64,000 nucleotides of DNA from Microcoleus sp. (GTDB taxonomy: Bacteria; Cyanobacteriota; Cyanobacteriia; Cyanobacteriales; Microcoleaceae): NCBI GenBank assembly GCA_042408215.1, contig JAYFMW010000003.1:416001-480000 (forward strand), given 5' to 3'. Both the position numbers and the translations under genes were made by a program. This document shows positions 27,341 through 44,478 of the stretch, piece by piece; positions within the stretch are counted from its first letter, which is position 1, and every line of letters starts with the position of its first letter. The notes below the pieces were generated by a model. The model saw nothing but the letters and a program-made list of their open reading frames with translations. It was not told the DNA's origin and searched no databases.

Positions 27341-28105
27341 TTAAAATATCGCGTGTGAAAGTTCTTCAGGGTTGAGATTATTGTGAATAACTTGACCGTC
27401 GCGGAACCAGACAACTCGCCGAGTTTGGCGCGCTACTTCCGGTTCGTGCGTTACCATAACAACAGTCATGCCACTAGCATTGAATTCTGTAAAAATATCC
27501 ATTACTTCTTGGGTAGTTTTAGTATCTAATGCACCTGTAGGTTCGTCAGCAAGTAACAATACAGGACGGTTGACAATAGCCCGCGCGATCGCAACTCGCT
27601 GCTGCTGTCCTCCTGATAGTTGATTCGGTCTATTTTGCAGCCGACTTTCCAAGCCTACCTTCGTTAAAGCATCTACTGCCCGTTCGCGTCTTTCCGCTGC
27701 GGGAACACCGGCATAAACCATCGGCAACATCACATTTTCTAAGGCTGTCAACTGAGACAACAGGTGAAATTGCTGGAAGACAAAACCTAATTTTAAATTG
27801 CGAATTCCGGCCAATTCTGCTTCCGGCATTTGGGCGACATCTACGCCGTCTAAGTAATAGCTGCCACTCGTAGGTCGATCGAGACAACCGATAATATTCA
27901 TAGCTGTAGATTTTCCCGAACCCGATGCGCCCATAATCGCACAATATTCTCCTTGTCTTACCGTCAAGCTGACACCGTTTAAAGCGCGAACTTCCAGGTC
28001 GCCAATCCCGTAAACTTTTGTGACATCTTCGAGACCGACAATAACGGGTTTTGACAGGACTTGCTGGTCGAGGTCTTGGTAGGTATCGGTTTGTAGTTCA
28101 GGCAT
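27341..28105 (-). CDS. ABC transporter ATP-binding protein (LolD/MacB/DevA type)
   Basis: GASGSGKST, LSGGQQQR, LLADEPTGALD, VTHE. Confidence 0.93.
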   Translation of the reverse strand: MPELQTDTYQDLDQQVLSKPVIVGLEDVTKVYGIGDLEVRALNGVSLTVRQGEYCAIMGASGSGKSTAMNIIGCLDRPTSGSYYLDGVDVAQMPEAELAGIRNLKLGFVFQQFHLLSQLTALENVMLPMVYAGVPAAERRERAVDALTKVGLESRLQNRPNQLSGGQQQRVAIARAIVNRPVLLLADEPTGALDTKTTQEVMDIFTEFNASGMTVVMVTHEPEVARQTRRVVWFRDGQVIHNNLNPEELSHAIF

Positions 28106-29081
28106 TTTTTTTCTGTGCGATCGACACAACTAACTACTAACTTAACACTTCCGCACACTTTGACGGTTTGATTTAACAAAAAAGCGACCTGCAAGCGATC
28201 GCCCATCATCTCGTTACTTTAACTCATTGTACAGTTCGCGAAACACTAGATCCGCGAGCTTACGGCAACTAGCATTCCGAGCATCGGCGAGCCTGCCTCC
28301 GCGCTTTTTAGTTCCATCGCTTTCAAACGCGCGACTGACAAAATATTCGCGTAATTCCAACTGCAATACAGTGTAAGACTGTCCTTTGAGCTTCTGCGGT
28401 TCAATGCGGCAGTGCACGTAAGTCCACATCGTGCTCCTAGTGTTGGCACACCCCGTCCACTTGCTACCACCGCCACCTGCCCGGACTTGCCCGCTAGATC
28501 TCTCAACTTTGCCAAGTCCGCAAGCTTGTCGAAATCGTCGGAGCGCGCGCTTCTTCGGCAAGCACTGGAAGTCCTCGAACGGGAATATTCGAGAGAGAAT
28601 CCAGCCGCGCTCGCGGTAGCCGAATGCAAACTTTTCAAAAATTCGGTGATAAGGATCGAAGTCAGGCTCGCCAAGCAGGTCAATCAATCTGCGTTCAACT
28701 CTTGCCTCGGTATCGTGCAGGTCGCAAACCACCGCTGCGAGTTCCCGCGTCATTTCGGAGATATTTGCCCGATCGCACTTTTGCTCTTTCTCATAGTGAT
28801 TTTTGAATCGCGACAGAATGTTTTTAGACAGAAAGTTGCCGCGGTCGGCGAGCCACGCCCAAAACGCCGGCGGTTTGCCCGGTTCGAGCGAACCGTTTTG
28901 CCGCTGGCTGTTGACCGTCGCGCGCGCTGGATATTCCGCTCTATAAGACTTAGACAAAGTTAGACACCGTTAGATGTTTTTACTCTGATGCTTATTTCCT
29001 GTTTCAGCGTAGTCTCAGAATGACTTCTGAGGGTTTGTCTACTCCACAGGCAATCTCGGTAGAGCTTACCGTTTGATTCAT

Positions 29082-30209
29082 TCAATCTGAGCGAATCGGA
29101 ACGTGAATTCCTTCAAACCATCGCTCGATATTTTTAGCAGCATTCAAGTCTCTGTCTTCTGTGTGACCGCAATCAGGACACACATAAACTCGATTCTTTA
29201 ATGGCATTTTGTGGCGGTGATTTCCACAATTTGAGCAAATCTGAGAACTCGGAAAAAAGCGGTCAACTAGAATCAACTGACTAGAAAAATTTTCAGTTTT
29301 GTATTCTAGTTGTCGCTGAAATTCGTACATTCCACAATCTGCAATTGCACCCGCCAATTTGTGATTTTTCAAAAATGCTTTGACATTCAAGTCCTCAATT
29401 TTAATCACGCTGTGGTTTTTAGCGAGATAATTAGTGAGTTTGTGAATAGCATCTTTGCGGATGAATGAGATGCGAGAATGCAGCTTTGCTAACTTTCTAA
29501 CGGCTTTAGTCCGGTTCTTTGAGCCTTTAGCTTTGCGACTGACAGAACGCTGCAATCGCTTCATTTTTTTACTCATTTTGCGGTCAGCTTTAGGGTTGGC
29601 AAAAACCTTCCCGTCACTGGTAATAGCCAATTCCTTGATACCAATATCAACGCCAACAGAGGGGCGATTTAGTGGTGTTGGAGGCTGTTCAATCTCATAC
29701 TTGATAGCTATAAACCATTGCTCAGCAGTGCGACTAATTACGCAGTTATGGGTAGATGTGATAGGTAAAGGTTCGTGCAGTATAACCCAACCAATTTTAG
29801 GGAGTTTAACTCGCTTACCATCATTGCTGATACCAGGCTTGGCTTTAGTGCCTTGCTCAAGATAAAAACTGTCTTTTGACTTGCCTTTTTTCTTGAACTT
29901 AGGCTGTTTGGAGACTTTTTTGAAACATCTATCCCATGCCGTCCTTACCTCTGCTAAAGCTTGTTGTGGACTTGCTTTAGAGCTTTGATAGTACCAGGGA
30001 TTAACTGGTTTAATCTCAGCGACTAGACGTTTGTGCAAGTCAATAGCAGAGGGGATTTTGATTGCTTTGTCAGTCTCTCTAAGTTGTAAAGCTTCCTGAA
30101 TAACAGCATTGCCAAAATTGTAAGCGTGTCTGGCTACTCCACAGTGTTGACGAAATAGAGTCACCTGTTTGTTATTAGGTTTTAATTCCGTCTTAAAACT
30201 GAGTAGCAT
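29082..30209 (-). CDS. tnpB: TnpB (IS607)
   Basis: GVDIG, IEDLN, CSNC..CPDC, DRDLNAA. Confidence 0.93.
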   Translation of the reverse strand: MLLSFKTELKPNNKQVTLFRQHCGVARHAYNFGNAVIQEALQLRETDKAIKIPSAIDLHKRLVAEIKPVNPWYYQSSKASPQQALAEVRTAWDRCFKKVSKQPKFKKKGKSKDSFYLEQGTKAKPGISNDGKRVKLPKIGWVILHEPLPITSTHNCVISRTAEQWFIAIKYEIEQPPTPLNRPSVGVDIGIKELAITSDGKVFANPKADRKMSKKMKRLQRSVSRKAKGSKNRTKAVRKLAKLHSRISFIRKDAIHKLTNYLAKNHSVIKIEDLNVKAFLKNHKLAGAIADCGMYEFQRQLEYKTENFSSQLILVDRFFPSSQICSNCGNHRHKMPLKNRVYVCPDCGHTEDRDLNAAKNIERWFEGIHVPIRSD

Positions 30210-30880
30210 TATTTTACAGCCTCCACTGCTTTAGCTATACCATCAATCAGTTTTTGGTTTTTGTGGCTTCTAGCTCCGTAAAGTCTAGCGCTAAAGACTT
30301 GAATTAATTCAATCATGTCTTGAACTAATTCCTGTTCAAAACTCAACTCATCCGGTGATTTGTTGACAATTACTACCTCGCATTCAAACTCTTCACACAT
30401 CGCAAAAACCAATTCAGAACCAAATCTAAGAAGCCGATCTTTGTGAGTGATGACAAGTCTACCAACTTCACCGGACATGATTCGTTTGAGTAGTTTTGTT
30501 AGTCCCTTTTTCTTGTAATTAAGTCCAGAACCTAAGTCTTGAATTGTCTCAAATTGCCAGCCATTAGCAGCACTAAACGATTCCAAGACAGCAGCCTGAC
30601 GCTTCAAATCTTCTTTTTGGTCGTGACTAGAAACTCTGGCATAGTTGATAGTGATTCGCTCATCTGTCTGATTCAAGTCTCTGGGAATGATTCGCTTGAT
30701 ATCGGCAAGGTAGAATCGTCTTTGTCCAGTGGGAGAGCGTTCAAACCTAATCTTGTCTGCATCAGTCCAGCGTCTCAGTGTCTTTGTCGAAATACCAAGC
30801 TCTTTGGCGGCTTCTCCGATTGAAAGGGTCACTTCTGATTGAGTCTCCAAGAGTTGCTTACCTCTAATACTACAACTCAA
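30209..30880 (-). CDS. tnpA: IS607 serine transposase TnpA with a MerR-like HTH (true start probably ~30832)
   Basis: LSIGEAA..LG..TLRRW, YARVSS, DLGSG, DRLLRFG, FSARLYG. Confidence 0.93.
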   Translation of the reverse strand: MSCSIRGKQLLETQSEVTLSIGEAAKELGISTKTLRRWTDADKIRFERSPTGQRRFYLADIKRIIPRDLNQTDERITINYARVSSHDQKEDLKRQAAVLESFSAANGWQFETIQDLGSGLNYKKKGLTKLLKRIMSGEVGRLVITHKDRLLRFGSELVFAMCEEFECEVVIVNKSPDELSFEQELVQDMIELIQVFSARLYGARSHKNQKLIDGIAKAVEAVK

Positions 30881-31451
30881 TAGTTACCCAATCCGGGAAG
30901 AATGTCAATAGGTGTTTATCACAAATCTTTCAGCCCCCTACCCAAGCAAGGCGGCCTTTGATAGAATTGATGAAGCTGGTCTGCTTGCGCGTTGTGGTTT
31001 TCAAGTCCAGCAGCGCGCGGCGGATTTTCTCAATCTGGGGATTGAGCTCCTTTACCCAGAAGCGGCGATCGTACACGTCGAGGTAATGGCGGCGGTAAAG
31101 CTCGCACATCACGAGCGCATCGAACGAATCGTCCTTGTTATCAGTTCCTCCGAGGCTCCGGCGAGTAGCGCGTACCATGCCTTGATCCGCCGTCAGGACA
31201 AAAACCCCGTATCTTCGGAGATGCTTGCGCCAATAGTAAGAATAAGTCCCCGTGCCTTCTAATATTGCGACGGCGGGCGAATCTCCTACTTTTTTGAGCA
31301 AACTTTCGATTTCTGTAGTTTTGTAGACCGAGTGAACCGCGCCAAATTCAGGAGAGAGATAGAAATCTCTGAGTGCAACTGTCGGAAATTTCTCAAGCAA
31401 GACCACGTCCACGCGGTGCGCGGAAACGTCAATTCCTATTACTTTTAACAT

Positions 31452-31720
31452 CAGTCTCCAACTATTAAAACTCTTACATAACCCACGAATCACCCAAGGG
31501 TGTTAACCCATATCCGCACTGAGGCTTAGGAGTTTTTATCGCGCGGCGAGGTTGGAATTCGCCGCGCGTTTGCGATCGGTCGTTCGTTCCCAGGAAGTAT
31601 TGGGGCGATAAAATCACCCACTTCCCATCTAAAGAACTAGAACCAATGCGAGGACGCAACCCTTACCCGCTACTCCCCTTTTTTCCAGGGGAGTTTCGAC
31701 TGTTAGGGAAACAGCCATCC
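31452..31720 (-). ncRNA. Candidate bridge-RNA-like structured non-coding region upstream of the IS110 recombinase
   Basis: Four stem-loops; contains GATGGG + ATCGCCC (match the predicted target) and ATGGG + GATTC (match the predicted donor junction). Confidence 0.45.
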
Positions 31721-32029
31721 TCAGGCGGGAATCAATCCGATCGCGACTAGCGATACGTAGACATAAATTGCTTTGGTCTGTTTGGTAATTGCGCTCGGTT
31801 CTACTTCCTCGAATTTCTTAGCTCGGAGAATATCGTTGGCAATATTTACGCATTCTGCCAAGCAACAGTCAAATGATTTGTGTGAACCTAAGAAACCGCG
31901 AGATTTAGCTGACTTGATAACTGCAAAAGTTTGCTTGAATTCTTCCTCGTTGTAGCTATCTTGCCGTAAGTTTTTGGCATCGGCGAGCAAGCGAAGAACC
32001 AGGCGACTGTTTTTATTGGCAGACTCCAT
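31721..32029 (-). CDS. Hypothetical protein
   Basis: 102-aa ATG ORF co-oriented with its neighbours. Confidence 0.6.
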   Translation of the reverse strand: MESANKNSRLVLRLLADAKNLRQDSYNEEEFKQTFAVIKSAKSRGFLGSHKSFDCCLAECVNIANDILRAKKFEEVEPSAITKQTKAIYVYVSLVAIGLIPA

Positions 32030-32187
32030 AGGGTTATTGTTGGAGGTAGTTGAATTAGAAATTGTTGACTATTTATTGGCGTGTTGATGTATCATTGGGG
32101 CAAGCCGAGTTTGCTTTTTACAAGGCGACTGCTAGAAGCGATCGAGGGTTCGACGTTCGATCGCTTTTAGTTTTTGGATTTTGGATT

Positions 32188-32685
32188 TTAGACTTCGACT
32201 ATAAAGGAGCTGCTGTTAGAGTTTTCGCGCAAGGCTTCTGCCATTCGCTCGACAGATTTTTCTATATCGTCCGAGGACATTCGCCCGAATTCGGCTTGAC
32301 CTATGGCTGCGACGTGTGACGCGGCTTGCTCGAAGTCGCAGTCAAAAATACTTGCTAGCATCTTAATCGCCACGGTGGAAGTAATCCCAGTAGAGACGAT
32401 CACGCACTTCTCTTGTCTTGATAGGTCAGTTAAGCCGATCGCCCGCGGCGCATCCTCTTCATCATCGCTGTCGGGAACGATGCGAATCGACTGCAAATTC
32501 AAGTCGCAACTGTCCAAGAGGTCGGAGAGCGTCTCCCGCAATTCAGTCAACGCGCGGTAATGCCCCTGGACTTTCAGGATGAGGTTCGACACGTTGAAAT
32601 CAATCTCGACAATCTCCCCCTTCATGGCATCGTCAAGCGGCGGCAGTGCGGAATGTTTGAATGTGTAGATGTTTGGATGTTCCAT
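32188..32685 (-). CDS. Hypothetical acidic protein
   Basis: 165-aa ORF with natural composition. Confidence 0.7.
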   Translation of the reverse strand: MEHPNIYTFKHSALPPLDDAMKGEIVEIDFNVSNLILKVQGHYRALTELRETLSDLLDSCDLNLQSIRIVPDSDDEEDAPRAIGLTDLSRQEKCVIVSTGITSTVAIKMLASIFDCDFEQAASHVAAIGQAEFGRMSSDDIEKSVERMAEALRENSNSSSFIVEV

Positions 32686-32774
32686 TGTTGTTAATAGGTG
32701 GTAGGAAGCGATCGCCTAGCTCGAAGGCGATCGCGCTGGAAGCAGATGATGGAAGTCGAATTAGCGGAGGACTG

Positions 32775-33611
32775 CTACATCGCATCACCTCCGCTAGGGG
32801 GCGAGCGAGCGCTCGACTCCGCGCCTGCAAATCCAAGCAGGTAACTGTCAATCAGTCCGTCGTCACAAAACGGGATAGCAGCGAACCGGCCAGCCGATCG
32901 CCTGGATTGGACTGCTTCTAACGGCTTCTGCTGCAAGCCGACTTTGCCCAGTGTGGCAAACCAATCGATCGCGCGGTTGTGGCTGAAGGCATCCGGCGAA
33001 GGTGTCGGAACTTTTTCCGGGGGGTCTAACAAGTCCGACAAGAACCAATCACCAGGAACGAGCAGCCGCCAAATCTCGTAGAGCGTCTTGAACGTTCGCG
33101 ACCTGCTACCAAGACTCAGAACCCATCCCCCGGTGACGGATTTACATAAATCTAGGCAGGCAGCGCGCGCCAATCTGAATACCCGAATGAAGCTGCATTT
33201 TTGCACCGGGGTGATGTCCTTTGCCTCGTAAATTGTCTGTTTGTACGATCGCACTTGCTCCATTAATTCCTGATTCTCGGCGCGCAGCCGCGCGATCTCT
33301 GCCAGCACAGCATCCAGTTCGGAGGGTTCGATTTGTTCCGAAGCGCGATCGGCATCGAGGGATTTTTCGATCGGCTCCAGGGCTTGAATAATTTCGACAC
33401 CGGGGGGAGTTTCGATCGGCTGATTGTCGCAAAGTGCGATCGGCTCCTGGGCTTGAAAAATCGGGAACGGCTGACCGACAAGCGCGGCAACCCAAGTCTC
33501 GCGGCGAGTCTTGTTGCCGTCGGGCGTAATTCCTAATTCCTGCGCGATCTCTTTGAGCTCCGGCAGTAGGTGTTTGTCTAGTAGTTCGCGGGTGTAGATG
33601 TGTAGATCCAT
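32775..33611 (-). CDS. Hypothetical protein with an N-terminal Rho-N/HEH-like motif and a coiled coil
   Basis: LPELKEIAQELGI..GNK; coiled coil AEIARLRAENQEL; start placed at MDLHIY. Confidence 0.7.
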   Translation of the reverse strand: MDLHIYTRELLDKHLLPELKEIAQELGITPDGNKTRRETWVAALVGQPFPIFQAQEPIALCDNQPIETPPGVEIIQALEPIEKSLDADRASEQIEPSELDAVLAEIARLRAENQELMEQVRSYKQTIYEAKDITPVQKCSFIRVFRLARAACLDLCKSVTGGWVLSLGSRSRTFKTLYEIWRLLVPGDWFLSDLLDPPEKVPTPSPDAFSHNRAIDWFATLGKVGLQQKPLEAVQSRRSAGRFAAIPFCDDGLIDSYLLGFAGAESSARSPPSGGDAM

Positions 33612-33752
33612 GATTTTGAAGAAAGGGGCGAGTATGCAGTCCCGCCCCGTCTCGTTGGGGTATGCAGGCAATCTATGGGAGATTTAACGCAGAGGTTCTG
33701 CAAAACCAAGCATTCACGCGGCTGAGCCGAATCCCTTTGTTGTATCTACCTT

Positions 33753-33800
33753 TCCATACTTTAGTATAGACATATTTATTTGTCAACACTAAAGTATGGA
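33753..33800. promoter_or_regulatory. Overlapping divergent sigma70-type promoters within a 13-bp perfect inverted repeat (operator/switch)
   Basis: TCCATACTTTAGT...ACTAAAGTATGGA; + strand TAGACA-17-TAAAGT, - strand TTGACA-17-TAAAGT. Confidence 0.7.
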
Positions 33801-33812
33801 TTCTATAGTAAA

Positions 33813-34166
33813 ATGAATCCAGACACAGGTAACGAGAAAAAAGAGACCTTGAAAAACTTAATTGAAGCGGCGGGTACAACTCAACGCCAGTTAAGTAGGG
33901 ATACCAGTATTGCCGAAGTGACGATTAACACTTGGGCGGCTGGCCGTAAAATACCCCGACTTGACAATGCTGCTTTGGTTGCCAGCCAGTTGGGAGTTTC
34001 GTTGAAAACTTTGGCGAAATCGATGCACCTTGATGTAGTGGCTATCCCCGGCGACTATAGCCTGGTCGAACTCAAGGCAATTGCCGCCGAGTTAGGGATC
34101 GAAAGGGTGGAGGACTTGCCCGAAGACTATCAAGCTCTGAGGCGGATGCGCGATCGGCAAAACTGA
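33813..34166 (+). CDS. XRE/Cro-family HTH transcriptional regulator
   Basis: TQRQLS..TSIAEVTINTWAAGRKIPRL..A..VA..LGVSL. Confidence 0.85.
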   Translation: MNPDTGNEKKETLKNLIEAAGTTQRQLSRDTSIAEVTINTWAAGRKIPRLDNAALVASQLGVSLKTLAKSMHLDVVAIPGDYSLVELKAIAAELGIERVEDLPEDYQALRRMRDRQN

Positions 34167-34246
34167 CGCGCTCCCAAAATACCGCTACACATAAAAGCTT
34201 CTCCCATGAGAGTCGTATTTATGTGTAGCCCTACAAAGTAGAAACC

Positions 34247-34897
34247 ATGAAGCAACTCACGCTGTTTGACGCCCTACCTGTCGAAAGCAGTATCAAACCG
34301 GGGAACTGGGTGAAGCTGCGGCGCAAGAGCAATAATGCCGCCTATTGGAAGAAAGGAGAGATCGTTCGGGTCGAGTCTGTCCATCCCTCGGATGGCAGTA
34401 TTAGATTTTGGAACGAGAGAACTGAAGGCTGGGGGTATCTGTATCCCGACCAGATTGTACTGGTGCCGCTACCCGCTGATTCTGTATCAAGTGCGATCGC
34501 CTTTGATACAGAATCAACACCCGAGTCCGTTGATACAGAATCAACACCCGAGTCCGTTGATACAGAATCAAAACCAGAGCCCGCAGGAATTGATTCTGTA
34601 TCAGAGCCGATCGCCCTTGATACAGAATCAAAACCAGAGTCCGTTGAAATTGATTCTGTATCAGGGCCCGTCAGCACCTACTCCCCCAAAGGAACGGCCC
34701 GCTGCGGGGAACTGAAATACTTTCGATTCAGCTACCGCTGCGGAAAAAAAATGAAACACGTCCACATTCCCGGCGGGTGTACTCGCGTCTTGCTCGCTCA
34801 GCAAAGAGCAGCCGAAGTGATGGAACTTTCGGCCGCTGGAGTTCCGGCAGTCGAGATTTGCGATCGCATCAAGCAGTGGAGCGGCAAAGTTACCTAG
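34247..34897 (+). CDS. Hypothetical protein: SH3/KOW-like N-terminus, repeat linker, basic C-terminal domain (YFRFSYR..HVHIPGG)
   Basis: MKQLTLFD start; internal DTES repeats; basic putative DNA-binding tail. Confidence 0.7.
   Translation: MKQLTLFDALPVESSIKPGNWVKLRRKSNNAAYWKKGEIVRVESVHPSDGSIRFWNERTEGWGYLYPDQIVLVPLPADSVSSAIAFDTESTPESVDTESTPESVDTESKPEPAGIDSVSEPIALDTESKPESVEIDSVSGPVSTYSPKGTARCGELKYFRFSYRCGKKMKHVHIPGGCTRVLLAQQRAAEVMELSAAGVPAVEICDRIKQWSGKVT
34477..34663. repeat. Seven copies of TGATACAGAATCA in both orientations inside the CDS
   Basis: Forward at 34504, 34531, 34558, 34618; reverse at 34477, 34590, 34650. Confidence 0.9.
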
Positions 34898-35396
34898 AAA
34901 TCGAATGCACCCAGAACTGGCCGTCGTAGGCGCAAGTCCGGCGAACGAGCTCGTAAGAATAGTGCAGCCCCGCGCCGCTGACGCTCGTGTCGTAACCGCC
35001 TGCAAAGTATTCGCCGTAGGGGTCGTTAACAATCAGCCCGGTTTCGTCGTACCCGCGCCCGACGATGATGTGGCCCGACCGGGTGAACATCCCGTGAACG
35101 ATGACGGGGTTGTTGTTGTCGAGCGACTGTTGGATGCCCTCGATCGATCCGTACCACGTAAAGTCATCCTTGCAGCCGTAAGCGCGGACGACCTTTGCCA
35201 AGTCCTCTGCCGAATGCCGGCTCAATTTCTGGCCGCGGACGTACTCGAACAGCTCGTCTTCAAGTTGCCATGCCGAATTTTTCGACCTAATGCCGTGGTA
35301 ATCCAAACACATCGCTACCGAGGTTAAATTGCACGTTCCTTCGGGGTGGTATACATTGTCTAATTGAGAAAAGTGCCTCACGCTCAATACTTTCAT
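34890..35396 (-). CDS. C39-like cysteine peptidase (possible cell-wall hydrolase)
   Basis: SQLDN..GTCNLTSVAM, GHIIV, VNDPYG (Cys-His-Asp). Confidence 0.88.
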   Translation of the reverse strand: MKVLSVRHFSQLDNVYHPEGTCNLTSVAMCLDYHGIRSKNSAWQLEDELFEYVRGQKLSRHSAEDLAKVVRAYGCKDDFTWYGSIEGIQQSLDNNNPVIVHGMFTRSGHIIVGRGYDETGLIVNDPYGEYFAGGYDTSVSGAGLHYSYELVRRTCAYDGQFWVHSISR

Positions 35397-35581
35397 CCTT
35401 GCCTCCTAGGAGATGGAGCCAGCAAACCAATCAGCGCGCCGTTGCATCCGGTAGCCAAATAAATCAATTCTTGCGGGACTCTCTTGTCTTGTGCAGCCAA
35501 AGAAATCCCCCCCACTGTCACCGCCGAAGAAATCGCACACAGCGAACCAACAATCATCCGATACGACCAAACATCAAGCAT
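35393..35581 (-). CDS. Small two-TM membrane protein (holin-like)
   Basis: Two hydrophobic segments; stop overlaps the peptidase start (ATGA). Confidence 0.6.
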   Translation of the reverse strand: MLDVWSYRMIVGSLCAISSAVTVGGISLAAQDKRVPQELIYLATGCNGALIGLLAPSPRRQG

Positions 35582-35594
35582 CGCAACTATTCAC

Positions 35595-35876
35595 CTAAAA
35601 CCCAGTTTTTTCGTTATCGTATTCTTTCAACAAATCTTCTTCGATCTCGTTGATAGTCCCCCGCAAGTGATACCCGTGCTCCAAGTTTAAGAATTTTTGC
35701 ACGTCTCGAACTTCCGCCCGCAATCCGATAAAAAGCGCCTTCAAAACAGTCAGCTTTCGTTGAATAGTGGCAAGCAGTCCCAGCACGCCTCGGGTCACGT
35801 TCCAGAGCGCAATAGTGCTAACCAGAAAGGCGAAGACCGAAGACAAGTTAGAAATAATTTCGCTGGCATATTTCAT
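35595..35876 (-). CDS. Small membrane-anchored/coiled-coil protein
   Basis: N-terminal TM; tightly packed in the operon. Confidence 0.65.
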   Translation of the reverse strand: MKYASEIISNLSSVFAFLVSTIALWNVTRGVLGLLATIQRKLTVLKALFIGLRAEVRDVQKFLNLEHGYHLRGTINEIEEDLLKEYDNEKTGF

Positions 35877-35877
35877 C

Positions 35878-36210
35878 TCACGTATAGTTCTCTATTTGAA
35901 TTTCATATAATTCTATCCACCGCTTCGGATAGAACTTGAGAGAGTAATATTCCTCGCCCTCAAACTCGGTAAATCGAATCAGCTTGCAAGCATTGAGCGG
36001 CAAAATAACGCTGGCCCCCTCAACGTCAAATCCCGCTACTGGATCGAAAATCTGCACCAACTCCCCGGCGACGCGCCAAGGAGTCGGCGCATCCGGTGAA
36101 GATATCCGAACTCTTGCTACAGGCCAAGTCAGACTCCCCGGAATGTAAACCGGCTCGACTGGATCGCTTGCCTTCCGATGAAATTGACTCGAAAAAATCG
36201 CCGTCCACAT
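35878..36210 (-). CDS. Small beta-rich hypothetical protein
   Basis: 110 aa, alternating hydrophobic pattern; coupled to the upstream fragment by TAATG. Confidence 0.7.
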   Translation of the reverse strand: MWTAIFSSQFHRKASDPVEPVYIPGSLTWPVARVRISSPDAPTPWRVAGELVQIFDPVAGFDVEGASVILPLNACKLIRFTEFEGEEYYSLKFYPKRWIELYEIQIENYT

Positions 36211-36323
36211 TATTCAGACTTAAATAACTTAAGCGCTTTCAGTTTTTCAGGTTCTTTGAAGTTCGTATCGATATTTACTCTCGTGCCGCTCTCAAGAATG
36301 AAATAAGTAGGTTTTCGATTTTC
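36210..36323 (-). pseudogene. 3' fragment of a gene cut by the IS605
   Basis: Open frame ENRKPTYFILESGTRVNIDTNFKEPEKLKALKLFKSE*, whose stop overlaps the next ATG. Confidence 0.55.
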
Positions 36324-36359
36324 TTGACATACTCCCCGGCGTAAACGCGCGGGGATTCT

Positions 36360-37520
36360 TTACGCTTCATCGACTGATGCTACCGAAATAGTCTTACTCT
36401 GTCTCAGCGTACATTTAAGGTCGTGCCGATGCCCCATGCCGACCATTTCTATATTCCTAGCAGCGTTTTCATCTCTATCTTGCTCGGTGCCACAACTCAA
36501 ACAAAGCACTGAGCGAATAGACAAATCAATTTTCCCCCACTTAAAACCACAGTCTGAGCAGACCTGGCTAGTTGGCTCCCATCTACTAATTACTTTGAAT
36601 TCTCTGCCCAACTTTTCGGACTTAGCCTCGCACAAAGTTCGGAATTCGTACCATCCTTGCTGACTAATTGCTCTTGAAAGTTTCCGGTTCTTAACCATGC
36701 CCGATACATTGAGGTCTTCCCAAATAATCACTTGGTTTTCGTTAACTATTTTGGTCGATAATTTGTGCAGGAAGTCTTGGCGGGTATCGGCAATCTGATT
36801 GTGCAGTTTGGCAATTCTGATTCGAGTTACACTTCTTCTCCTAGAGTCATGAGGTTGACGAGCTAATTTGCGTTGCAGTTTGCGAACTTTCCGATCTAAC
36901 TTTTTATAACTAGGGCTTTCAGCTTTCTCGCCATTGCTCATCACCGCAAAGGTTTTGATTCCTAGGTCGATTCCAATGCTAGGGTTTTTAGCCTCAGCCT
37001 GAATTGGTTGAACCTCTATAACAAAACTCAAGAAATAACGATTTGCACAATCCTTGATTACCGTGACGGAGCTAGGTTCAGAGGGTAGCTCCCTCGACCA
37101 AATTGGGCTGACAATTCCAATCTTGGCTAAGTAAATACCACGATGTTTAAATGAGAATCCTCCAACTCTAAAACGTGCCGATTGACTGCCAGTTCTTTTT
37201 TTGAACTTAGGATATCCGACTTTACGTCCTTTTCTCTTTCCCTTGCAGGAGTTAAAAAAGTTTTTGAAAGCAACATCTAAGTCGGCAACAGACTGTTGTA
37301 ATGGGACGCACGACACCTCTCCTAGCCAAGCCCTTTCTTCAGTATTCTTAGCCTGAGTAATGACGATTTTTTGCAAATCTGCCGAACTTGGCTTTTTATC
37401 TGACTGCTTGCAGAGTGCAAGCGCATCGTTCCAGACCACTCGGACGCAGCCAAACAACCGAGCTAGGCTCTGCTGTTGTTGGCTGGTTGGGTAAAATCTG
37501 TAGCGATATCTTGCTTTCAT
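36360..37520 (-). CDS. tnpB: TnpB
   Basis: GIDLG, WEDLN, CSDC..CLSC, DRDENAA. Confidence 0.93.
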   Translation of the reverse strand: MKARYRYRFYPTSQQQQSLARLFGCVRVVWNDALALCKQSDKKPSSADLQKIVITQAKNTEERAWLGEVSCVPLQQSVADLDVAFKNFFNSCKGKRKGRKVGYPKFKKRTGSQSARFRVGGFSFKHRGIYLAKIGIVSPIWSRELPSEPSSVTVIKDCANRYFLSFVIEVQPIQAEAKNPSIGIDLGIKTFAVMSNGEKAESPSYKKLDRKVRKLQRKLARQPHDSRRRSVTRIRIAKLHNQIADTRQDFLHKLSTKIVNENQVIIWEDLNVSGMVKNRKLSRAISQQGWYEFRTLCEAKSEKLGREFKVISRWEPTSQVCSDCGFKWGKIDLSIRSVLCLSCGTEQDRDENAARNIEMVGMGHRHDLKCTLRQSKTISVASVDEA

Positions 37521-37569
37521 GGTTGTGCTAAGATTGGTCTGCCACTAAATTATATCTTGGTTTCCAGAA

Positions 37570-37967
37570 ATGACAACTTTTATCGCCGATAACGCCATTC
37601 TGTTACAGAACTTAAAATACACTTGGTCTGTGTAACAAAGTACCGTCGGTCTGTATTTACGGGTGAAAGCCTTGATTTGATTGAAAAATCGTTTCGAGAG
37701 GTTGCTGAAAAAATGAATTTTCAGGTTCTAGAGTTTAATGGTGAAGGTAATCACGTTCATGGGCTGATTGAGTATCCGCCTAAACTTTCTATTTCTCAAA
37801 TAGTGAATGCTTTGAAAGGAGTTTCTAGCCGTCGGTACGGACAGGCTGTACACAAAAAACCCCACAAAGAAGCTTTATGGAGTCCTAGCTATTTTGCGGT
37901 TTCTGTAGGCGGTGCACCTTTGGAAGTATTGAAGGAATATATTAGAAATCAAGAAAAGCCGTCCTAA
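37570..37967 (+). pseudogene. tnpA: IS200-type Y1 transposase with a damaged 5' end
   Basis: HLVCVTKYRR, NHVH, LWSPSYF..GGAP..KEYI; ATG at 37570 is out of frame, with an in-frame TAA nearby. Confidence 0.8.
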
Positions 37968-37996
37968 AAGGACGGGGCTTGTATCCCATTTTCTTG

Positions 37997-38374
37997 GTCA
38001 AAATCACCACCGGTATTAAATGGGTTGCGGGTACGTGGTACGCGATACCCGGGCTTGTTATTCCTTTTGCGTTGGGAGAGGTACGATCGTACTACCTGGC
38101 TGTAAATTATCAATACAGCGAAGTGACGAATACTTACAACCACTGGCAAATGGGCGGTCATTGCTTCTTGCCAGGCGGTATAGGCTGGAAAGCTGCCGGA
38201 ACGCCGGCCGAAGTTGTCATGACGCTCCAGCATCACCACGGTAGCGATAGCAGCGCTCTTACTTTTAGATCGCCGGCTGGGAGTGGAGATAGAGGTCTAG
38301 AAGTTAAGCCTAATTTTGACATAACAATCAGCGGCTTAGGGTTTATAGAATTTGCTCTCAAGCGTTTTGGATGA
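37997..38374 (+). pseudogene. 3' fragment of a beta-rich protein lacking its own start
   Basis: Natural-looking aromatic/Gly-rich text starts exactly at the IS boundary; the ORF-track start lies inside the IS end. Confidence 0.55.
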
Positions 38375-38424
38375 CTTGCTCAAAATCGTTCAAAGAGTAG
38401 AGGCAAAGAGATAGATAATAGAAC

Positions 38425-40086
38425 ATGAGTAAGATTTCATTCGACACAGAAAACCAGGAAATTCAAGTAACCCGAAGCATCGGGAAAAATGGGGATGGAA
38501 AAATTACCATCAACAGAGAAGGAGGTGCAATTGAGATTAATTTAGGGATTGCATCAATTGGAGCGACAGCCGAGTACGGCGGCGCTATATCTCTCGGCAT
38601 TGCGGGGCAAGAGGTCACTTGGGGGAGAGAGGGAGGCACTATCCATATCGGAATTGGCGGCTTTGCTGTGGACGTAGAGGCAAAAGATTGCATTATCACG
38701 GAAACAAAATCTATTTTCGGGCAAATCGTCGCGCAGCGAAGTTACCCCGACCCGGGGTGTAAATTACCCGATCCGCCAACTCCAACACCAACTCCAACCC
38801 CAACACCAACACCCGCGCTTAATGCAGTAGAAGTTCCCGATACTGAGACCGAAGGTTGGGTATTTGTTCATGTGAGATATTACGGAGGACGACTCTCGGT
38901 CGGGTCTCCATATCCGGCGCCGGAGAGATTTGAGGATCGTTATATCGTAAGTCCTGTTGATGAATTTAGGTCTGCGTGGGTCAAGGCAGCTCCTTTTGAT
39001 ATCGACATTATGACTCTATATCCACCGCCGAAACGGACGCTAATAAAAAAAGGCACAACACTGTGGATGCACTATATCGAGGTTAAAGATGCTAGCTGGA
39101 AAGGAGGCGGAGGCTATTCCCAAGTACCTACGCTTGCCATGCAAAATGCGGTTAGTGTTTACTTCACCTCAGACACTAGCCCGTTGTTTTTCTGGGGGCG
39201 CTTTAGCGATATCCGTAAATTTTTAAGGATTAAAAACGAGCAAAATGCTATCAAAGGAGCGCAGCTAGACAAGTACGGTATTCCCCCCGCCCTCCATGAA
39301 TGGATACCATACGCTTGTATCCCCTTTAGAGGGCCATTAGACAATCCCAAACCTAAACCTCTCTTACCCACAGGAAACAAACCACCCGTGAACGATTGCT
39401 GTGAAGAAATTTTGGACATATTAGAAGATATCAAGGAAGCCTACGCGGTAGACCGCATTTTAAAAGACAAATTTCCGGTATCGAATACATTTATGGCCCC
39501 GGAATGCGATCCGGCGGCTACCACGGAGGCGACAAATTTTTATGAAATTTTGCAGTGTCTGTTTCGGATGCTCTCGCACGGTTTGATTTTTGAACCGCGC
39601 GTGTCAATCAAAGACGCTGACGCTGCCAAAGCCGGCGACCAAGAATGTAAGACGCGGTACCTCAACGCGACGGGCTGGGCATCGGCAGTATCGGAAGCGT
39701 TAATGGAAGTAAAAGACGACGGTAACGTGTCTACAAATATGGACATTAGAAGCGGTTTTGCAGCTACTCAAACAATGGTTGGCGTAGCAGATGCGCTCAC
39801 CAAATTAGATGCAATTCTCGACTGCATGGGTTTAACCCTAATGCCTAAAGTGGAGTCGATTCAAACGCCTTACAACTGCTTTATTAAGATAGGTAAAGGA
39901 TTTGGCGAAGGCAACGAGCGGCAAATTGACTTAAACCAAGATGAGGCGACAGAGAAATTATTGCCCGACTTCTTGCAGACTAAAATCAACAAAATTAAAA
40001 CAGTTGCAATTCACCCCAGGATCGAAACTATTTTAGACATTTTGCAAAGGATAGAATCAAACTTACCGCCGCAAAGCAATGGTTAA
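38425..40086 (+). CDS. Large hypothetical protein (Gly-rich beta N-terminus, PT linker, helical C-terminus); possible virion/attachment protein
   Basis: 553-aa ORF, first of four closely coupled genes. Confidence 0.75.
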   Translation: MSKISFDTENQEIQVTRSIGKNGDGKITINREGGAIEINLGIASIGATAEYGGAISLGIAGQEVTWGREGGTIHIGIGGFAVDVEAKDCIITETKSIFGQIVAQRSYPDPGCKLPDPPTPTPTPTPTPTPALNAVEVPDTETEGWVFVHVRYYGGRLSVGSPYPAPERFEDRYIVSPVDEFRSAWVKAAPFDIDIMTLYPPPKRTLIKKGTTLWMHYIEVKDASWKGGGGYSQVPTLAMQNAVSVYFTSDTSPLFFWGRFSDIRKFLRIKNEQNAIKGAQLDKYGIPPALHEWIPYACIPFRGPLDNPKPKPLLPTGNKPPVNDCCEEILDILEDIKEAYAVDRILKDKFPVSNTFMAPECDPAATTEATNFYEILQCLFRMLSHGLIFEPRVSIKDADAAKAGDQECKTRYLNATGWASAVSEALMEVKDDGNVSTNMDIRSGFAATQTMVGVADALTKLDAILDCMGLTLMPKVESIQTPYNCFIKIGKGFGEGNERQIDLNQDEATEKLLPDFLQTKINKIKTVAIHPRIETILDILQRIESNLPPQSNG

Positions 40087-40342
40087 ACAATCGGCAGTTA
40101 CTCAGGCTGATATTAAGGTATTTATCGCGCGCCAAGTGAAAGACGATGTAAGGCAACTCCGGCGCGAGCGCGCGCTAGAGCGGATTAACGTTTTAAAAGC
40201 CGTCGGCGTCGGCCACATGGACAATTATATAGACGAGTGGGAACAAGACTTTGCCAACTCCACCACCTCGCCCAAGTCGCCGGAACCCAAAAATAAGAAG
40301 CTCAAGAAAATCACTAGCGTAAGACGGGATGTAAGACGATGA
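40079..40342 (+). CDS. Hypothetical protein
   Basis: Overlaps both neighbours. Confidence 0.65.
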   Translation: MVKQSAVTQADIKVFIARQVKDDVRQLRRERALERINVLKAVGVGHMDNYIDEWEQDFANSTTSPKSPEPKNKKLKKITSVRRDVRR

Positions 40343-41280: not shown

Positions 41281-41297
41281 ATGCTGCGAAACCAGAA

Positions 41298-42143: not shown

Positions 42144-42186
42144 CGGCAGTCAGTCTAAATAGAACTTGTGCGATTCCCAATATTCC

Positions 42187-42828: not shown

Positions 42829-43229
42829 TTTTCATTGTATTTTTTCCATCGTTCCATTATATTCCACCGACGACAATGACTAAACTTTAAATCAATACTC
42901 ATTTTTTTTGCCAAATCTAGTGCAATTAGTGGGGTAAATCCTCCTCATATTTGACACCCGCGCCGAGGGTTTATTTCATCAACTGTCGCGATGTATTTAG
43001 AATCCTCGCCCGGTGTCTTCATGTCGCGGTAGTAGTATGTGTGAAGTGAGTAATATTCGCCGCAAATTACCTTTCCTATTTATTCAGATTTCCAAATCTT
43101 GATCGAGTGACATTTGTATAGCATTGCTTGTCTAGTATGGTGCTAGCGGTGCGCTAGTATGCCGGCGGCGAGCGACGGAAATTAGTTACAAAGAATTACT
43201 GGGTAAGTGATTTTATAACTGCCGCCGTG

Positions 43230-44295: not shown

Positions 44296-44478
44296 AAGAA
44301 CAGGGGATTCCCATCAGTTTGCGCGGCAGGAGTGATATCAAATCCGTTGGTATCGTCCTGTATTCATCTCTCTCTTCTCTTCCTCTGCGGTCTCTGCGGT
44401 CTCTGCGGTTTAATCATTCCGAAACAACCGTAAACGAGAGGACCAATGTTTCGACACTAATGAACAGAACCTCTATAT

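What the first reader, a model, noticed from the sequence alone, without database searches (positions are those of the whole stretch)
31452..31720. Candidate internal bridge RNA whose motifs match both predicted junctions
Seen on the minus strand: four stem-loops upstream of the recombinase ATG. One domain carries GATGGG (31624-31629) and ATCGCCC (31603-31609), matching the top-strand left arm and reverse-complemented right arm of the predicted target CTGATGGGCGAT. A second domain, closed by AAAACTC/GAGTTTT, carries ATGGG (31507-31511) and GATTC (31487-31491), matching the predicted donor junction GATGGGAATC. Established: bridge RNAs have a target loop and a donor loop with such left/right guides. 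Caveat: the matches are only 5-7 nt, ATCGC overlaps HIP1, and ATCGCCC can also pair locally.
Basis: inference. Interest (0 to 1): 0.8.

Follow-up and report, generated by a model that had tools for sequence, protein, structure and literature searches.

The report
Ribozyme-headed bridge RNA in 16-kb element
The flagged stretch is a real guide ("bridge") RNA for a jumping-gene enzyme, but it sits deep inside a 16-kb mobile element of a cyanobacterium and is preceded by what looks like a self-cutting hammerhead RNA, a combination not found in the papers searched.

Summary
The core idea holds. It is an internal bridge RNA with a target loop followed by a donor loop. It serves a 16,159-bp element on the minus strand (window 44310..28152) that ends in an IS110-type recombinase.

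An empty site in a relative fixes both junctions and a duplicated GA core. The right junction is 52 nt off, so two of the four guide assignments are wrong: ATCGCCC and ATGGG. The true guides are:
- GAUGGGA, the left target guide
- AAUACUUCC, the right target guide
- GUGCGGA, the left donor guide
- GGGUGAUUC, the right donor guide

These guides co-vary with the junctions in homologues at six independent sites.

Unexpectedly, the 5' domain (31729..31666) has every hammerhead-ribozyme core residue and three co-varying stems. The same motif lies upstream of 23 of 29 related recombinase genes. Rfam does not call it at its thresholds. Predicted cleavage at 31671|31670 would free the bridge RNA from a longer transcript.

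In this window the recombinase is split by a 2,005-bp IS607-type insertion. No transcript evidence was obtained.

The parts
28152..44308 (-). Body of the mobile element: 16,157 bp, or 16,159 bp with one GA core. Left end ATCCCCTG... at 44308; right end ...GTGTGCG at 28152.
   Evidence: The empty site in G356 joins the window's left flank directly to the right flank with one dinucleotide between them. Homology to the G324, G446 and G447 elements begins and ends at these points.
44309..44315 (-). Left target half plus left core copy: GATGG (44315..44311) and GA (44310..44309).
   Evidence: Identical to the left target guide GAUGGGA, 7 of 7. Sequence read.
28141..28151 (-). Right core copy GA (28151..28150) and right target half AGTGTTAAG (28149..28141).
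   Evidence: Core plus right flank GAAGTGTT pairs with the right target guide, 8 of 9 positions including one G-U; the G before the core also pairs with C31593 (read by eye), which gives GGAAGTGTT/AAUACUUCC. Right-flank homology to the G356 empty site starts at 28150.
31666..31729 (-). Hammerhead-like type I ribozyme domain. Stem I CCCGC (31729..31725) with GCGGG (31670..31666). Core CUGAGGA 31724..31718, extra U 31717. Stem II 31716..31698. GAA 31697..31695. Stem III 31694..31672. H17 = A at 31671. Predicted cleavage between 31671 and 31670.
   Evidence: The MFE fold gives the hammerhead three-way junction in 8 of 9 close homologues. Across 27 sequences the invariant columns include CUGA-N-GA, CGAAA and U16.1, with H17 never G. 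92.5% of cells are paired, 12 of 18 pairs show compensatory change, and A15.1-U16.1 holds in 27 of 27. Rfam does not call this copy.
31467..31670 (-). Bridge RNA proper, about 204 nt: from the predicted ribozyme-made 5' end to the 3' strand of the donor-loop closing helix.
   Evidence: Consensus structure over 9 homologues: 62 pairs, 30 with compensatory change, 92.9% paired against 39.7 to 50.2% when partners are slid.
31586..31637 (-). Target-binding loop domain. Left target guide GAUGGGA 31629..31623, with identity to the rebuilt target running on to 31619. Right target guide AAUACUUCC 31601..31593.
   Evidence: The left target guide matches left flank plus core 7 of 7 at the 3 independent sites with a known left junction. 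The right target guide pairs 7 to 9 of 9 in 8 of 9 loci.
31540..31568 (-). Middle hairpin between the two loops (CGCGCGGCG...CGCCGCGCG).
   Evidence: All 8 pairs of this helix show changes on both sides among homologues (helix 8).
31467..31536 (-). Donor-binding loop domain. Left donor guide GUGCGGA 31519..31513. Right donor guide GGGUGAUUC 31495..31487.
   Evidence: The left donor guide equals right end plus core 7 of 7 in 9 of 9 loci, across three right-end variants. GAUUC of the right donor guide pairs with core plus 3 nt of the left end, followed by one mismatch and then CC/GG.
30941..31451 (-). N-terminal part of the recombinase (MLKVIGID...GRLAW), the RuvC-like DEDD domain.
   Evidence: PF01548 at 31.7 bits against cut-off 29. 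The alignment shows the break after ...GRLAW.
28936..30940 (-). 2,005-bp IS607-type insertion splitting the recombinase gene: MerR-HTH serine recombinase 30209..30880 and TnpB 29082..30209.
   Evidence: Pfam Resolvase/MerR and OrfB_IS605/TNB. Four copies at 98.4 to 100% identity in the genome. One contig of DNA run X2 joins 28935 to 30941 without it.
28214..28935 (-). C-terminal part of the recombinase (EYPARA...NELK, stop 28216..28214), including the invariant Ser-Gly.
   Evidence: Alignments (S318, G319 invariant). NCBIfam NF051857 over the full length in the intact orthologue.
28182..28204 (-). Terminator-like hairpin with a T run, between the stop codon and the right end.
   Evidence: A hairpin plus T run is seen at the same place in all 9 homologues.
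31721..43820 (.). Cargo. Small tyrosine recombinase 43230..43820(-). CI-like HTH 33780..34166(+). C39-like peptidase 34890..35396(-). A second TnpB 36360..37520(-). About 9 ORFs without a family, including the 298-, 165- and 102-aa ORFs directly upstream of the ribozyme.
   Evidence: Cargo is collinear with the G324, G446 and G447 elements.
33758..33786 (-). Only promoter-like site found on the minus strand upstream of the 298/165/102-aa ORFs, the ribozyme and the bridge RNA.
   Evidence: TTGACA-17-TAAAGT, 10 of 12. This is a consensus match only; the number of sites in the region equals that of shuffles.

Best explanation
Window 31670..31467 (minus strand) encodes the bridge RNA of a 16.2-kb cargo-carrying element of the IS110 family.

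The element's recombinase (RuvC-like DEDD domain plus a serine Tnp domain, NCBIfam family transpos_IS110_2) lies at the right end. The RNA lies directly upstream of the gene, 12.6 kb from the left end.

The RNA has two internal loops. The first reads the target: GAUGGGA has the sequence of the left target plus the GA core, and AAUACUUCC pairs with the core plus the right target. The second reads the circular donor junction: GUGCGGA has the sequence of the right end plus core, and GGGUGAUUC pairs with the core plus the left end. Recombination at the shared GA core inserts the whole element and duplicates GA.

Because the RNA is internal, it cannot use a promoter rebuilt across the joined ends as in IS621. 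It is most likely read through from the upstream cargo operon. A type I hammerhead ribozyme (31729..31666) would then cut after A31671. That would leave a bridge RNA and recombinase mRNA starting at GCGGG with a 5'-OH.

Shown here by sequence: the boundaries, the core duplication, the structure covariation, the guide-to-junction covariation, the recombinase fold and the hammerhead core and stems. Inferred: transcription, self-cleavage, RNA binding and recombination.

In this genome the recombinase is broken by an IS607-type insertion, so this copy is probably immobile.
For: Boundaries:
- The G356 empty site reads ...CTGATGG CA AGTGTTAGC..., which is the window's left flank plus right flank with one dinucleotide.
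- Element homology to relatives ends at 28150 and starts at the left end.

Structure:
- z -4.58.
- 62 consensus pairs, 30 with compensatory change, 92.9% paired against 39.7 to 50.2% when slid, 0 of 500 shuffles reaching it.

Guides:
- Left donor guide 7 of 7 in 9 of 9 loci. It switches GUGCGGA, GUGCAGA, AGAUAGA together with the right end.
- Left target guide 7 of 7 in 4 of 4 loci with a known left junction. These are 3 independent sites: GATGGGA, GTAAGGA, GTATCGA.
- The G447 left junction was found as the exact predicted 13-mer, 13.9 kb upstream on the same strand. Its interior is collinear with the window element from the first bases.
- Right target guide 7 to 9 of 9 pairs in 8 of 9 loci.
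- Each cognate flank is the best or joint best of 6 in every row of the cross-table.
- All four guides include the core, as defined for IS621 (PMC11208160, passages read).

Enzyme:
- PF01548.
- NF051857 at 240 bits against cut-off 180.
- D8, E65, D108, D111, S318 invariant in 14 sequences down to 27% identity.
- Model pLDDT 87.1. The ten best PDB matches are all ISCro4 or IS621 bridge recombinase chains, E 1e-10 to 2e-9, TM 0.63 to 0.66 on the target.

Hammerhead:
- for fold, invariant core and stem covariation.
- Motif present upstream of 23 of 29 family loci.
- The best Rfam families for two canonical members are hammerheads: L031 at 35.8 bits and L013 at 22.1 bits.
- An extra nucleotide between A9 and G10.1 occurs in natural hammerheads, and U there raised activity (PMC3705267 and PMC4209133, passages read).
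Against: - No transcript evidence. The one RNA run held only contigs, and none lay on the RNA.
- Rfam finds no hammerhead in the window's copy or in L104 even at E up to 10. The hits in other members stay below gathering scores (35.8 and 22.1 against 56.3).
- The most distant close relative (L109) has extra hairpins where stem II should close, and L102 has a 2-nt deletion there.
- The right donor guide has a constant mismatch at the sixth position.
- L104's right flank fits only 5 of 9 (it lacks 2 nt that its sister L105 has).
- In six more distant family members I could find the predicted right junction by eye in only 3.
- The G356 empty site has CA where GA is expected.
- Many of the nine close loci are kin: six sites, three left junctions.
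- The structure was derived from the same alignment on which it was counted.
- The profile search of PDB sequences found nothing, and PF02371 is not reached.
Confidence: 0.8

Rival explanations
1. Same RNA, but the element ends right after the stop codon (GATGGG|CGAT, about 28203). The target would be CTGATGGGCGAT, ATCGCCC the right target guide and ATGGG the left donor guide.
For: TGATGGG occurs at both proposed junctions. ATGATGGGCGAT is present at 28198..28209.
Against: The G356 empty site resumes homology at 28150, not 28203. The stretch 28151..28213 is conserved among the elements and ends in the motif GTGTGCGGA, which the RNA copies. ATCGCCC is paired inside the apical hairpin. The proposed motifs do not co-vary in homologues, whereas the corrected ones do.
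Confidence: 0.02
2. The region is only a structured leader that controls recombinase expression. The guide-like matches are chance, and target choice is made by protein.
For: No RNA or binding data exist. The individual matches are short (5 to 9 nt). The number of independent sites is small.
Against: Loop sequences change together with the flanks at six sites while the stems are kept. A left junction was predicted from the loops and found exactly. The enzyme has the fold of RNA-guided bridge recombinases.
Confidence: 0.05
3. The 5' three-way junction is a scaffold or protein-binding domain of the bridge RNA that merely resembles a hammerhead. It does not cut, and the RNA has its own promoter.
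For: Rfam does not call it at gathering scores, and not at all in this copy. Stem I is only 4 to 5 bp. There is an extra U after A9. L109 and L006 carry large insertions. IS621 bridge RNA also begins with a 5' stem-loop (recalled).
Against: The invariant columns include exactly the hammerhead catalytic positions. The only variable core position is N7 (U, G, C and A all seen). H17 is A or C in the 27 aligned sequences and U in L109, never G. A15.1-U16.1 is kept in 27 of 27. No promoter-like site lies between the upstream ORF and the RNA. The upstream ORF ends within or a few nt before the motif in the loci examined.
Confidence: 0.2
4. The 16-kb island is moved by its own tyrosine recombinase (43230..43820). 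The IS110-type gene with its RNA is a passenger insertion sequence at one end.
For: A Phage_integrase-family gene sits 488 bp (44308 to 43820) inside the left end and is kept in G324 and G447.
Against: - The RNA's guides match the outer junctions of the whole island, not a compact unit around the gene.
- A 2-bp core duplication with no long att repeat fits IS110-type recombination.
- G056 holds three family elements, but this tyrosine recombinase was not found there with this query at E <= 1e-10.
- The protein is closest to small FimB/FimE-type invertases and scores below their cut-offs.
Confidence: 0.04

Closest known systems
IS621 / ISCro4 bridge recombinase with bridge RNA (IS110 group; Durrant et al. 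2024, PMC11208160)
   Same: RNA directly upstream of the recombinase gene. Target loop comes first, then donor loop. Left guides have the sequence of the top strand and right guides are complementary to it. [quoted passage not shown] DEDD plus Ser enzyme with the same fold.
   Different: - 16 to 17% sequence identity, and no hit by sequence profile to the PDB chains.
- Tnp domain below the Pfam PF02371 cut-off.
- Core GA (possibly GAN) rather than CT.
- RNA lies 12.6 kb from the left end, so no junction promoter is possible.
- Extra middle hairpin.
- Hammerhead-like domain at the 5' end.
- Element of 14 to 16 kb rather than about 1.3 kb.
Large cargo-bearing IS110 loci (Hu, Xie, Yang, Rubin, bioRxiv 10.64898/2026.08.14.744561; abstract, section 5 and passages read)
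   Same: IS110-type recombinase and bridge RNA whose guides match the outer flanks of a multi-gene element well above 2 kb.
   Different: - That study kept only insertions matching both of its IS110 HMM profiles. This family reaches only one of the two IS110 Pfam domains (PF01548), so it would probably have been excluded (inference).
- That study describes mostly plasmid-derived, resistance-rich cargo added stepwise. Here the cargo is a conserved, collinear gene set across species and genera.
- No ribozyme is mentioned there, and cyanobacteria and Microcoleus do not occur in its text.
- Its supplements could not be seen.
Hammerhead ribozymes (type I topology; Rfam RF03152 RAGATH-1-hammerhead, RF00008)
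   Same: Core CUGANGA, GAAA and UH. Three helices. A15.1-U16.1. Open stem I. The best Rfam families for two family members are hammerheads.
   Different: - Below Rfam gathering scores in those members, and no hit in this copy.
- Extra U between A9 and G10.1 in most Microcoleus copies.
- Short stem I.
- Placed between an ORF and a guide RNA.
Engineered ribozyme-flanked guide RNAs (ribozyme-gRNA-ribozyme cassettes; recalled, no call)
   Same: A hammerhead placed directly 5' of a guide RNA so that self-cleavage defines the guide's 5' end within a longer transcript.
   Different: Those are synthetic and usually add a second ribozyme at the 3' end. Here the arrangement is natural, has a 5' ribozyme only, and the guide stays joined to the recombinase mRNA.
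IS1111 group / seekRNA elements (recalled; mentioned in PMC11208160)
   Same: The same enzyme family with an RNA guide.
   Different: There the RNA lies downstream of the gene in the right end and long subterminal inverted repeats are present. Here it lies upstream, and no such repeats were seen.

Membership tests
IS110-family bridge recombinase system | N-terminal RuvC-like DEDD domain | tested here: met
   PF01548 at 31.7 bits (window fragment) and 32.0 bits (intact orthologue) against cut-off 29. D8, E65, D108, D111 are invariant in 14 sequences.
IS110-family bridge recombinase system | C-terminal Tnp domain (Pfam PF02371) with a conserved serine | tested here: inconclusive
   S318-G319 is invariant and the fold aligns over the full length to IS621 and ISCro4. 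PF02371 is absent in the window protein and in L034. It scores 16.8 bits in L035 against cut-off 21.3, and passes only in a distant member, L006, at 25.7 bits.
IS110-family bridge recombinase system | Fold of solved bridge recombinases | tested here: met
   Model pLDDT 87.1. Ranks 1 to 10 are ISCro4 (9t56) and IS621 (8wt6, 8wt9), E 1.1e-10 to 2.3e-9, TM on the target 0.63 to 0.66.
IS110-family bridge recombinase system | Non-coding RNA with two internal loops next to the gene | tested here: met
   Consensus structure with 30 of 62 pairs compensatory.
IS110-family bridge recombinase system | Four guides (left/right target, left/right donor) matching target and donor, each including the core | tested here: met
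   with the definition taken from PMC11208160.
IS110-family bridge recombinase system | Site-specific insertion with a short core duplicated and no terminal inverted repeats | tested here: met
   GA at both junctions and one dinucleotide in the empty site. Terminal inverted repeats were not searched for formally.
IS110-family bridge recombinase system | RNA expressed from a promoter rebuilt across the joined right and left ends | tested here: not met
   The RNA starts 12.6 kb from the left end. No promoter-like site lies directly upstream.
IS110-family bridge recombinase system | RNA binding and RNA-dependent recombination | not testable with these tools
The RNA run gave no cover of the RNA.
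NCBIfam NF051857 transpos_IS110_2 | Score above the curated cut-off over the full length | tested here: met
   240 bits against 180, residues 3-406 on profile 1-392 of 393.
NCBIfam NF033542 IS110 family RNA-guided transposase | Score above the curated cut-off | tested here: not met
   52.1 bits against 140, N-terminal half only.
Hammerhead ribozyme | Catalytic core C3 U4 G5 A6 N7 G8 A9, G12 A13 A14, and U16.1 followed by H17 (not G) | tested here: met
   These positions are among the invariant columns in 27 sequences. N7 varies (U, G, C, A). H17 is A or C in the 27, and U in L109.
Hammerhead ribozyme | Three helices around the core, supported by covariation | tested here: met
   92.5% paired against 32.8 to 51.6% when slid. 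12 of 18 pairs are compensatory. The MFE fold gives the junction in 8 of 9.
Hammerhead ribozyme | Match to an Rfam hammerhead model at its gathering score | tested here: not met
   No hit in the window or L104. L031 scores 35.8 and L013 22.1 bits against 56.3 for RF03152.
Hammerhead ribozyme | Self-cleavage 3' of H17 | not testable with these tools
   Needs an in vitro transcript or 5'-end mapping.

The most novel reading that the evidence does not exclude
A whole family of 14 to 16-kb integrative elements of filamentous cyanobacteria uses a bridge recombinase as its integrase. It makes its guide RNA by hammerhead self-cleavage out of a polycistronic cargo transcript. This would be a natural ribozyme-guide RNA fusion that frees RNA-guided recombination from the need for a junction promoter, and so allows large cargo between the left end and the RNA.
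Probability: 0.6. Interest if true: 0.85.

Novelty: new variant of a known kind. Interest (0 to 1): 0.78.

Why it matters
Bridge RNAs are known from compact insertion sequences in which the RNA is switched on by joining the element's ends. Here the same logic runs a conserved 14 to 16-kb element, and the RNA is far from either end.

The hammerhead-like domain offers a concrete, testable answer to how such an internal guide gets a defined 5' end. It also links two fields that the papers searched do not connect: self-cleaving ribozymes, whose bacterial roles are mostly unknown, and RNA-guided recombinases.

The work also assigns a guide RNA, a GA core and a target rule to NCBIfam family transpos_IS110_2. 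That family is not labelled RNA-guided, and screens that require both IS110 Pfam domains probably miss it.

Natural intact orthologues, for example in Tychonema sp. LEGE 06208 and Microcoleus sp. ARI1-B5, give ready material for tests.

Tried and rejected
- **Rfam.** A scan of 27500..33000 gave nothing. Narrow scans of the window's and L104's 5' domain gave no hammerhead.
- **Expression.** One metatranscriptome run (X1, contigs only) covers the IS607 insert and 31783..31945 but not the RNA, so nothing can be said about transcription.
- **Left junctions of the three G056 elements and of G172.** Pattern searches returned about as many hits as the reversed-pattern controls. No candidate could be tied to an element. 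G448:C6 GTATCGAGTCCCC is a candidate for L105, but its interior shows no similarity to known cargo.
- **L103:730.** TAAGGAGTC there looked like a left junction but lies inside collinear cargo. The real junction is at G446:C6:885.
- **PDB sequence search.** A profile search with the recombinase alignment gave 0 hits.
- **Alignment A1.** The search for related loci could not use it, so it was repeated with A2.
- **Strict hammerhead descriptor.** It found 15 of 29 family loci and missed known cases with one stem mismatch or long insertions. A looser regular expression found 23 of 29.
- **Distant family members.** The predicted right junction was seen by eye in L010, L011 and L014, but not within 260 nt in L013, L023 and L024.
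- **Earlier notes of this scan.** Nothing relevant.
- **Literature.** Searches for hammerhead with IS110, hammerhead with bridge RNA, hammerhead ribozyme with cyanobacteria and transposase, self-cleaving ribozyme with bridge recombinase, and bridge RNA with cyanobacteria found no paper linking the two.
Full report
**1. The observation.**

The 277 nt upstream of the start codon fold much better than shuffles (MFE -104.6 against -84.1 +/- 4.5 kcal/mol, z -4.58, 0 of 200).

The gene behind it begins at ATG 31451 (MLKVIGID...). It hits Pfam DEDD_Tnp_IS110 (31.7 bits, cut-off 29).

The gene is split. The frame ends after ...GRLAW at 30941 and resumes with EYPARA... at 28935 (alignment with intact relatives). 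Between the two parts lies a 2,005-bp IS607-type element: a MerR-HTH serine recombinase plus TnpB. It is present in four copies at 98.4 to 100% identity in the genome. One contig of DNA run X2 joins 28935 to 30941, so an allele without the insertion exists in public data. Run X3 has the insertion.

**2. Relatives and boundaries.**

The RNA region is single-copy in its own genome. With the C-terminal fragment as query, 37 of 401 genomes of the phylum have a match, all within the same class. The close relatives are in G324 (84%), G056 (70, 63 and 58%) and G172 (41%). A scan of named genomes added Microcoleus and Tychonema records (8 loci).

Nucleotide homology between the window and these elements runs from 31730 to 28150, skipping the IS607 insert. 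Against G324, collinear similarity continues upstream to 43980. So the unit is much larger than an insertion sequence.

The exact string GATGGGAATC occurs once in the window, at 44315..44306 on the minus strand.

Genome G356 has the empty site. Its sequence ...CACTCCTGCCACGAAACCTGATGG CA AGTGTTAGCTTAGTAGTTAG... is the window's left flank (...CTGATGG GA|ATCCCC...) joined to the window's right flank (...GTGTGCG|GA AGTGTTAAGTTAGTAGTTAG...) with a single dinucleotide between them.

The element therefore runs from 44308 to 28152 on the minus strand, and GA is duplicated at 44310..44309 and 28151..28150. With one core copy it is 16,159 bp.

The right junction (about 28203) is 52 nt too far in. The supposed junction lies in a terminator-like hairpin (28204..28182) that contains the HIP1 palindrome.

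**3. The RNA.**

Nine homologous upstream regions align (A3). They give a consensus structure of 62 pairs, 30 of which show changes on both sides. Counted on that structure:
- 92.9% of cells pair, against 39.7 to 50.2% when the partners are slid.
- 0 of 500 shuffles reach the observed covariation.
- The structure was derived from this same alignment, which favours it.

Downstream of a 5' three-way junction, the RNA has an internal-loop domain (31637..31586), a hairpin (31568..31540) and a second internal-loop domain (31536..31467).

**4. Guides and junctions.**

Definitions follow Durrant et al. 2024 (PMC11208160, passages read). Left guides have the sequence of the top strand, right guides are complementary to it, and the core takes part in all four pairings.

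Window guides:

| Guide | Sequence | Coordinates | Match |
|---|---|---|---|
| Left target guide | GAUGGGA | 31629..31623 | equals GATGG-GA; identity continues as GAUGGGAAGUG with the rebuilt target GATGG-GA-AGTG |
| Right target guide | AAUACUUCC | 31601..31593 | pairs with GGAAGTGTT (one G-U) |
| Left donor guide | GUGCGGA | 31519..31513 | equals right end plus core, GTGCG-GA |
| Right donor guide | GGGUGAUUC | 31495..31487 | pairs with GA-ATCCCC with one mismatch |

Across loci:
- The left donor guide equals right end plus core 7 of 7 in 9 of 9 loci. It changes with it (GTGCGGA, GTGCAGA, AGATAGA).
- The left target guide equals left flank plus core 7 of 7 in all 4 loci where I could fix the left junction. 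These are three independent sites: the window (GATGGGA), G324 with its sister G446 (GTAAGGA) and G447 (GTATCGA).
- The G447 junction was found as the exact predicted 13-mer on the same contig and strand, 13.9 kb upstream of the gene. The DNA behind it is collinear with the window element from its first bases.
- The right target guide pairs at 7 to 9 of 9 positions in 8 of 9 loci.
- The exception is L104 (5 of 9). Its flank lacks 2 nt (GT) that the sister locus L105 has at the same site, and L104's guide fits L105's flank 9 of 9.
- In a 6 x 6 table of independent sites, each RNA's own flank scores best or joint best (5 to 7 of 7; others 2 to 6).
- The base after GA is the same in the left end and the right flank at all three fully defined sites (A/A, G/G, A/A). 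The core may therefore be GAN.

Against the reading:
- The right donor guide always has a mismatch at its sixth position.
- G356 has CA, not GA.
- The loci are kin.
- In six more distant family members I found the predicted right junction by eye in only three: L010, L011 and L014 (for example UUGUUAUUC against GAATAACAA). I did not find it in L013, L023 or L024.

**5. The enzyme.**

- The intact orthologue hits NCBIfam NF051857 transpos_IS110_2 over its full length (240 bits, cut-off 180).
- It reaches only 52 bits on NF033542, the model named RNA-guided (cut-off 140).
- Pfam PF02371 is not reached in the close family.
- A profile search of PDB sequences finds nothing.
- D8, E65, D108, D111 and S318-G319 are invariant in 14 sequences down to 27% identity.
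- An AlphaFold model (pLDDT 87.1) has as its ten best PDB matches only ISCro4 and IS621 bridge recombinase chains (E 1.1e-10 to 2.3e-9, TM on the target 0.63 to 0.66, 16 to 17% identity).

**6. The 5' domain is hammerhead-like.**

The nearly invariant CCGCCUGANGA at the start of the conserved region led me to test a hammerhead. In the window the parts are:

| Part | Sequence | Coordinates |
|---|---|---|
| Stem I | CCCGC / GCGGG | 31729..31725 / 31670..31666 |
| Core | CUGAGGA | 31724..31718 |
| Extra base | U | 31717 |
| Stem II | GGCUGUU / AACAGUC | within 31716..31698 |
| G12 A13 A14 | GAA | 31697..31695 |
| Stem III | opens with A-U | 31694..31672 |
| H17 | A | 31671 |

Evidence for:
- Folding the domain alone gives exactly this junction in 8 of 9 close homologues. 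L109 has extra hairpins.
- A simple pattern for the motif is present upstream of the gene in 23 of 29 family loci. A strict helix descriptor finds 15 of 29.
- In the window's own 7.36-Mb genome the strict descriptor gives 16 hits at 14 places. This one has by far the best helices (7, 8 and 5 pairs).
- The looser pattern gives 8 hits in that genome. Two lie next to family recombinases: this one and C17:6768.
- I aligned 27 sequences (A4), dropping L005 and L006 for long insertions. The invariant columns include the hammerhead core. N7 takes all four bases. H17 is A or C.
- On the three helices 92.5% of cells pair, against 32.8 to 51.6% when slid. 12 of 18 pairs have compensatory changes. A15.1-U16.1 is kept in 27 of 27.
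- For canonical members without the extra U, the best Rfam families are hammerheads. L031 scores 35.8 bits on RF03152. L013 scores 22.1 bits on RF03152 and 16.7 on RF00008.
- An extra nucleotide between A9 and G10.1 is known in natural hammerheads, and a U there raised activity (PMC3705267 and PMC4209133, passages read).

Evidence against:
- All the Rfam scores are below the gathering scores.
- The window and L104 copies get no hammerhead hit at all.

**7. How it most likely works.**

The upstream 298-, 165- and 102-aa ORFs lie on the same strand. The 102-aa ORF ends inside the motif. The only promoter-like site on that strand is at 33786..33758, and none lies just before the RNA (consensus matches only).

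I therefore infer read-through transcription, hammerhead cleavage after A31671, and a product that starts at GCGGG and carries the bridge RNA followed by the recombinase reading frame. The enzyme and RNA would then pair the circular right end-GA-left end junction with a GATGG-GA-AGTGTT-like target.

None of these steps is shown here. The one RNA data set held only contigs, and none lay on the RNA.

**8. The element.**

Cargo:
- a small tyrosine recombinase closest to FimB/FimE-type invertases, below their cut-offs
- a CI-like repressor
- a C39-like peptidase
- a second TnpB
- about nine ORFs without a family

The relatives are of similar size: G324 about 14.9 kb and G447 about 15 kb. In another genus, G306, the predicted left junction TGGATGA|ATCCCC lies 12.4 kb upstream of the gene. 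Large size is thus a trait of the family.

The tyrosine recombinase is not the likely mover. The guides match the outer junctions, and this protein was not found in G056, which has three family elements.

**9. What is known.**

Bridge RNAs are established (PMC11208160). Cargo-bearing IS110 loci up to about 100 kb were reported in a 2026 preprint (10.64898/2026.08.14.744561; abstract, section 5 and passages read). That preprint requires both IS110 profiles and does not mention cyanobacteria or ribozymes.

A 2026 preprint on non-coding RNA clustering treats bridge RNAs and hammerheads separately. It selects IS110 loci by PF01548 plus PF02371 (10.64898/2026.10.21.760802, passages read).

Five searches found no paper linking a hammerhead to IS110 or bridge RNAs, or describing cyanobacterial bridge RNAs. 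Supplementary files were not seen.

**10. Verdict.**

The finding is real and its core reading is right, with a corrected right junction and two corrected guides. It is a new variant of a known kind. The points of interest are the internal position of the RNA in a conserved 14 to 16-kb element and the hammerhead-like domain at its head.

Noticed in passing
window 28936..30940: A 2,005-bp IS607-type element (serine recombinase plus TnpB) splits the bridge recombinase gene. There are four copies at 98.4 to 100% identity in the genome, so it is recently active. One contig of DNA run X2 lacks this insertion.
   Followed up: partly
window 36200..37900: A second TnpB gene (36360..37520, minus strand) lies inside the cargo. 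This stretch has no collinear counterpart in the G324 element, and related copies (76 to 85% identity) lie elsewhere in the genome. It is probably a later insertion.
   Followed up: partly
window 44328..44446 and 44499..44597: Two short repeat elements of about 100 to 120 nt lie in the left flank. They are present in 61 of 61 genomes of the genus searched, with many copies each. Both are absent from the otherwise orthologous empty site in G356. They look like MITEs.
   Followed up: partly
window 48382..50369: A tandem array with a period of about 356 bp and copies 95 to 98% alike. It was noticed through a recurring ATGGTGGGCGAT motif.
   Followed up: no
own genome G000:C17:6768..8223: A second, distant member of the same recombinase family (450-aa ORF, 31% identity to the C-terminal fragment) with its own hammerhead-like motif upstream.
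   Followed up: partly
L043 (G356:C101), about 1440..1400: The empty site has CA where the window has the GA core. Either a substitution occurred or the site there is not a perfect target.
   Followed up: no
A4 alignment, loop of stem II: Many family hammerheads share a CUGACUCAG-like loop 2. It could be a tertiary contact or a protein site.
   Followed up: no
window 31783..31945: A 164-nt contig of a sediment metatranscriptome run (X1) matches the 102-aa ORF upstream of the ribozyme with no differences. The same run also covers the IS607 element. DNA carry-over cannot be excluded.
   Followed up: no
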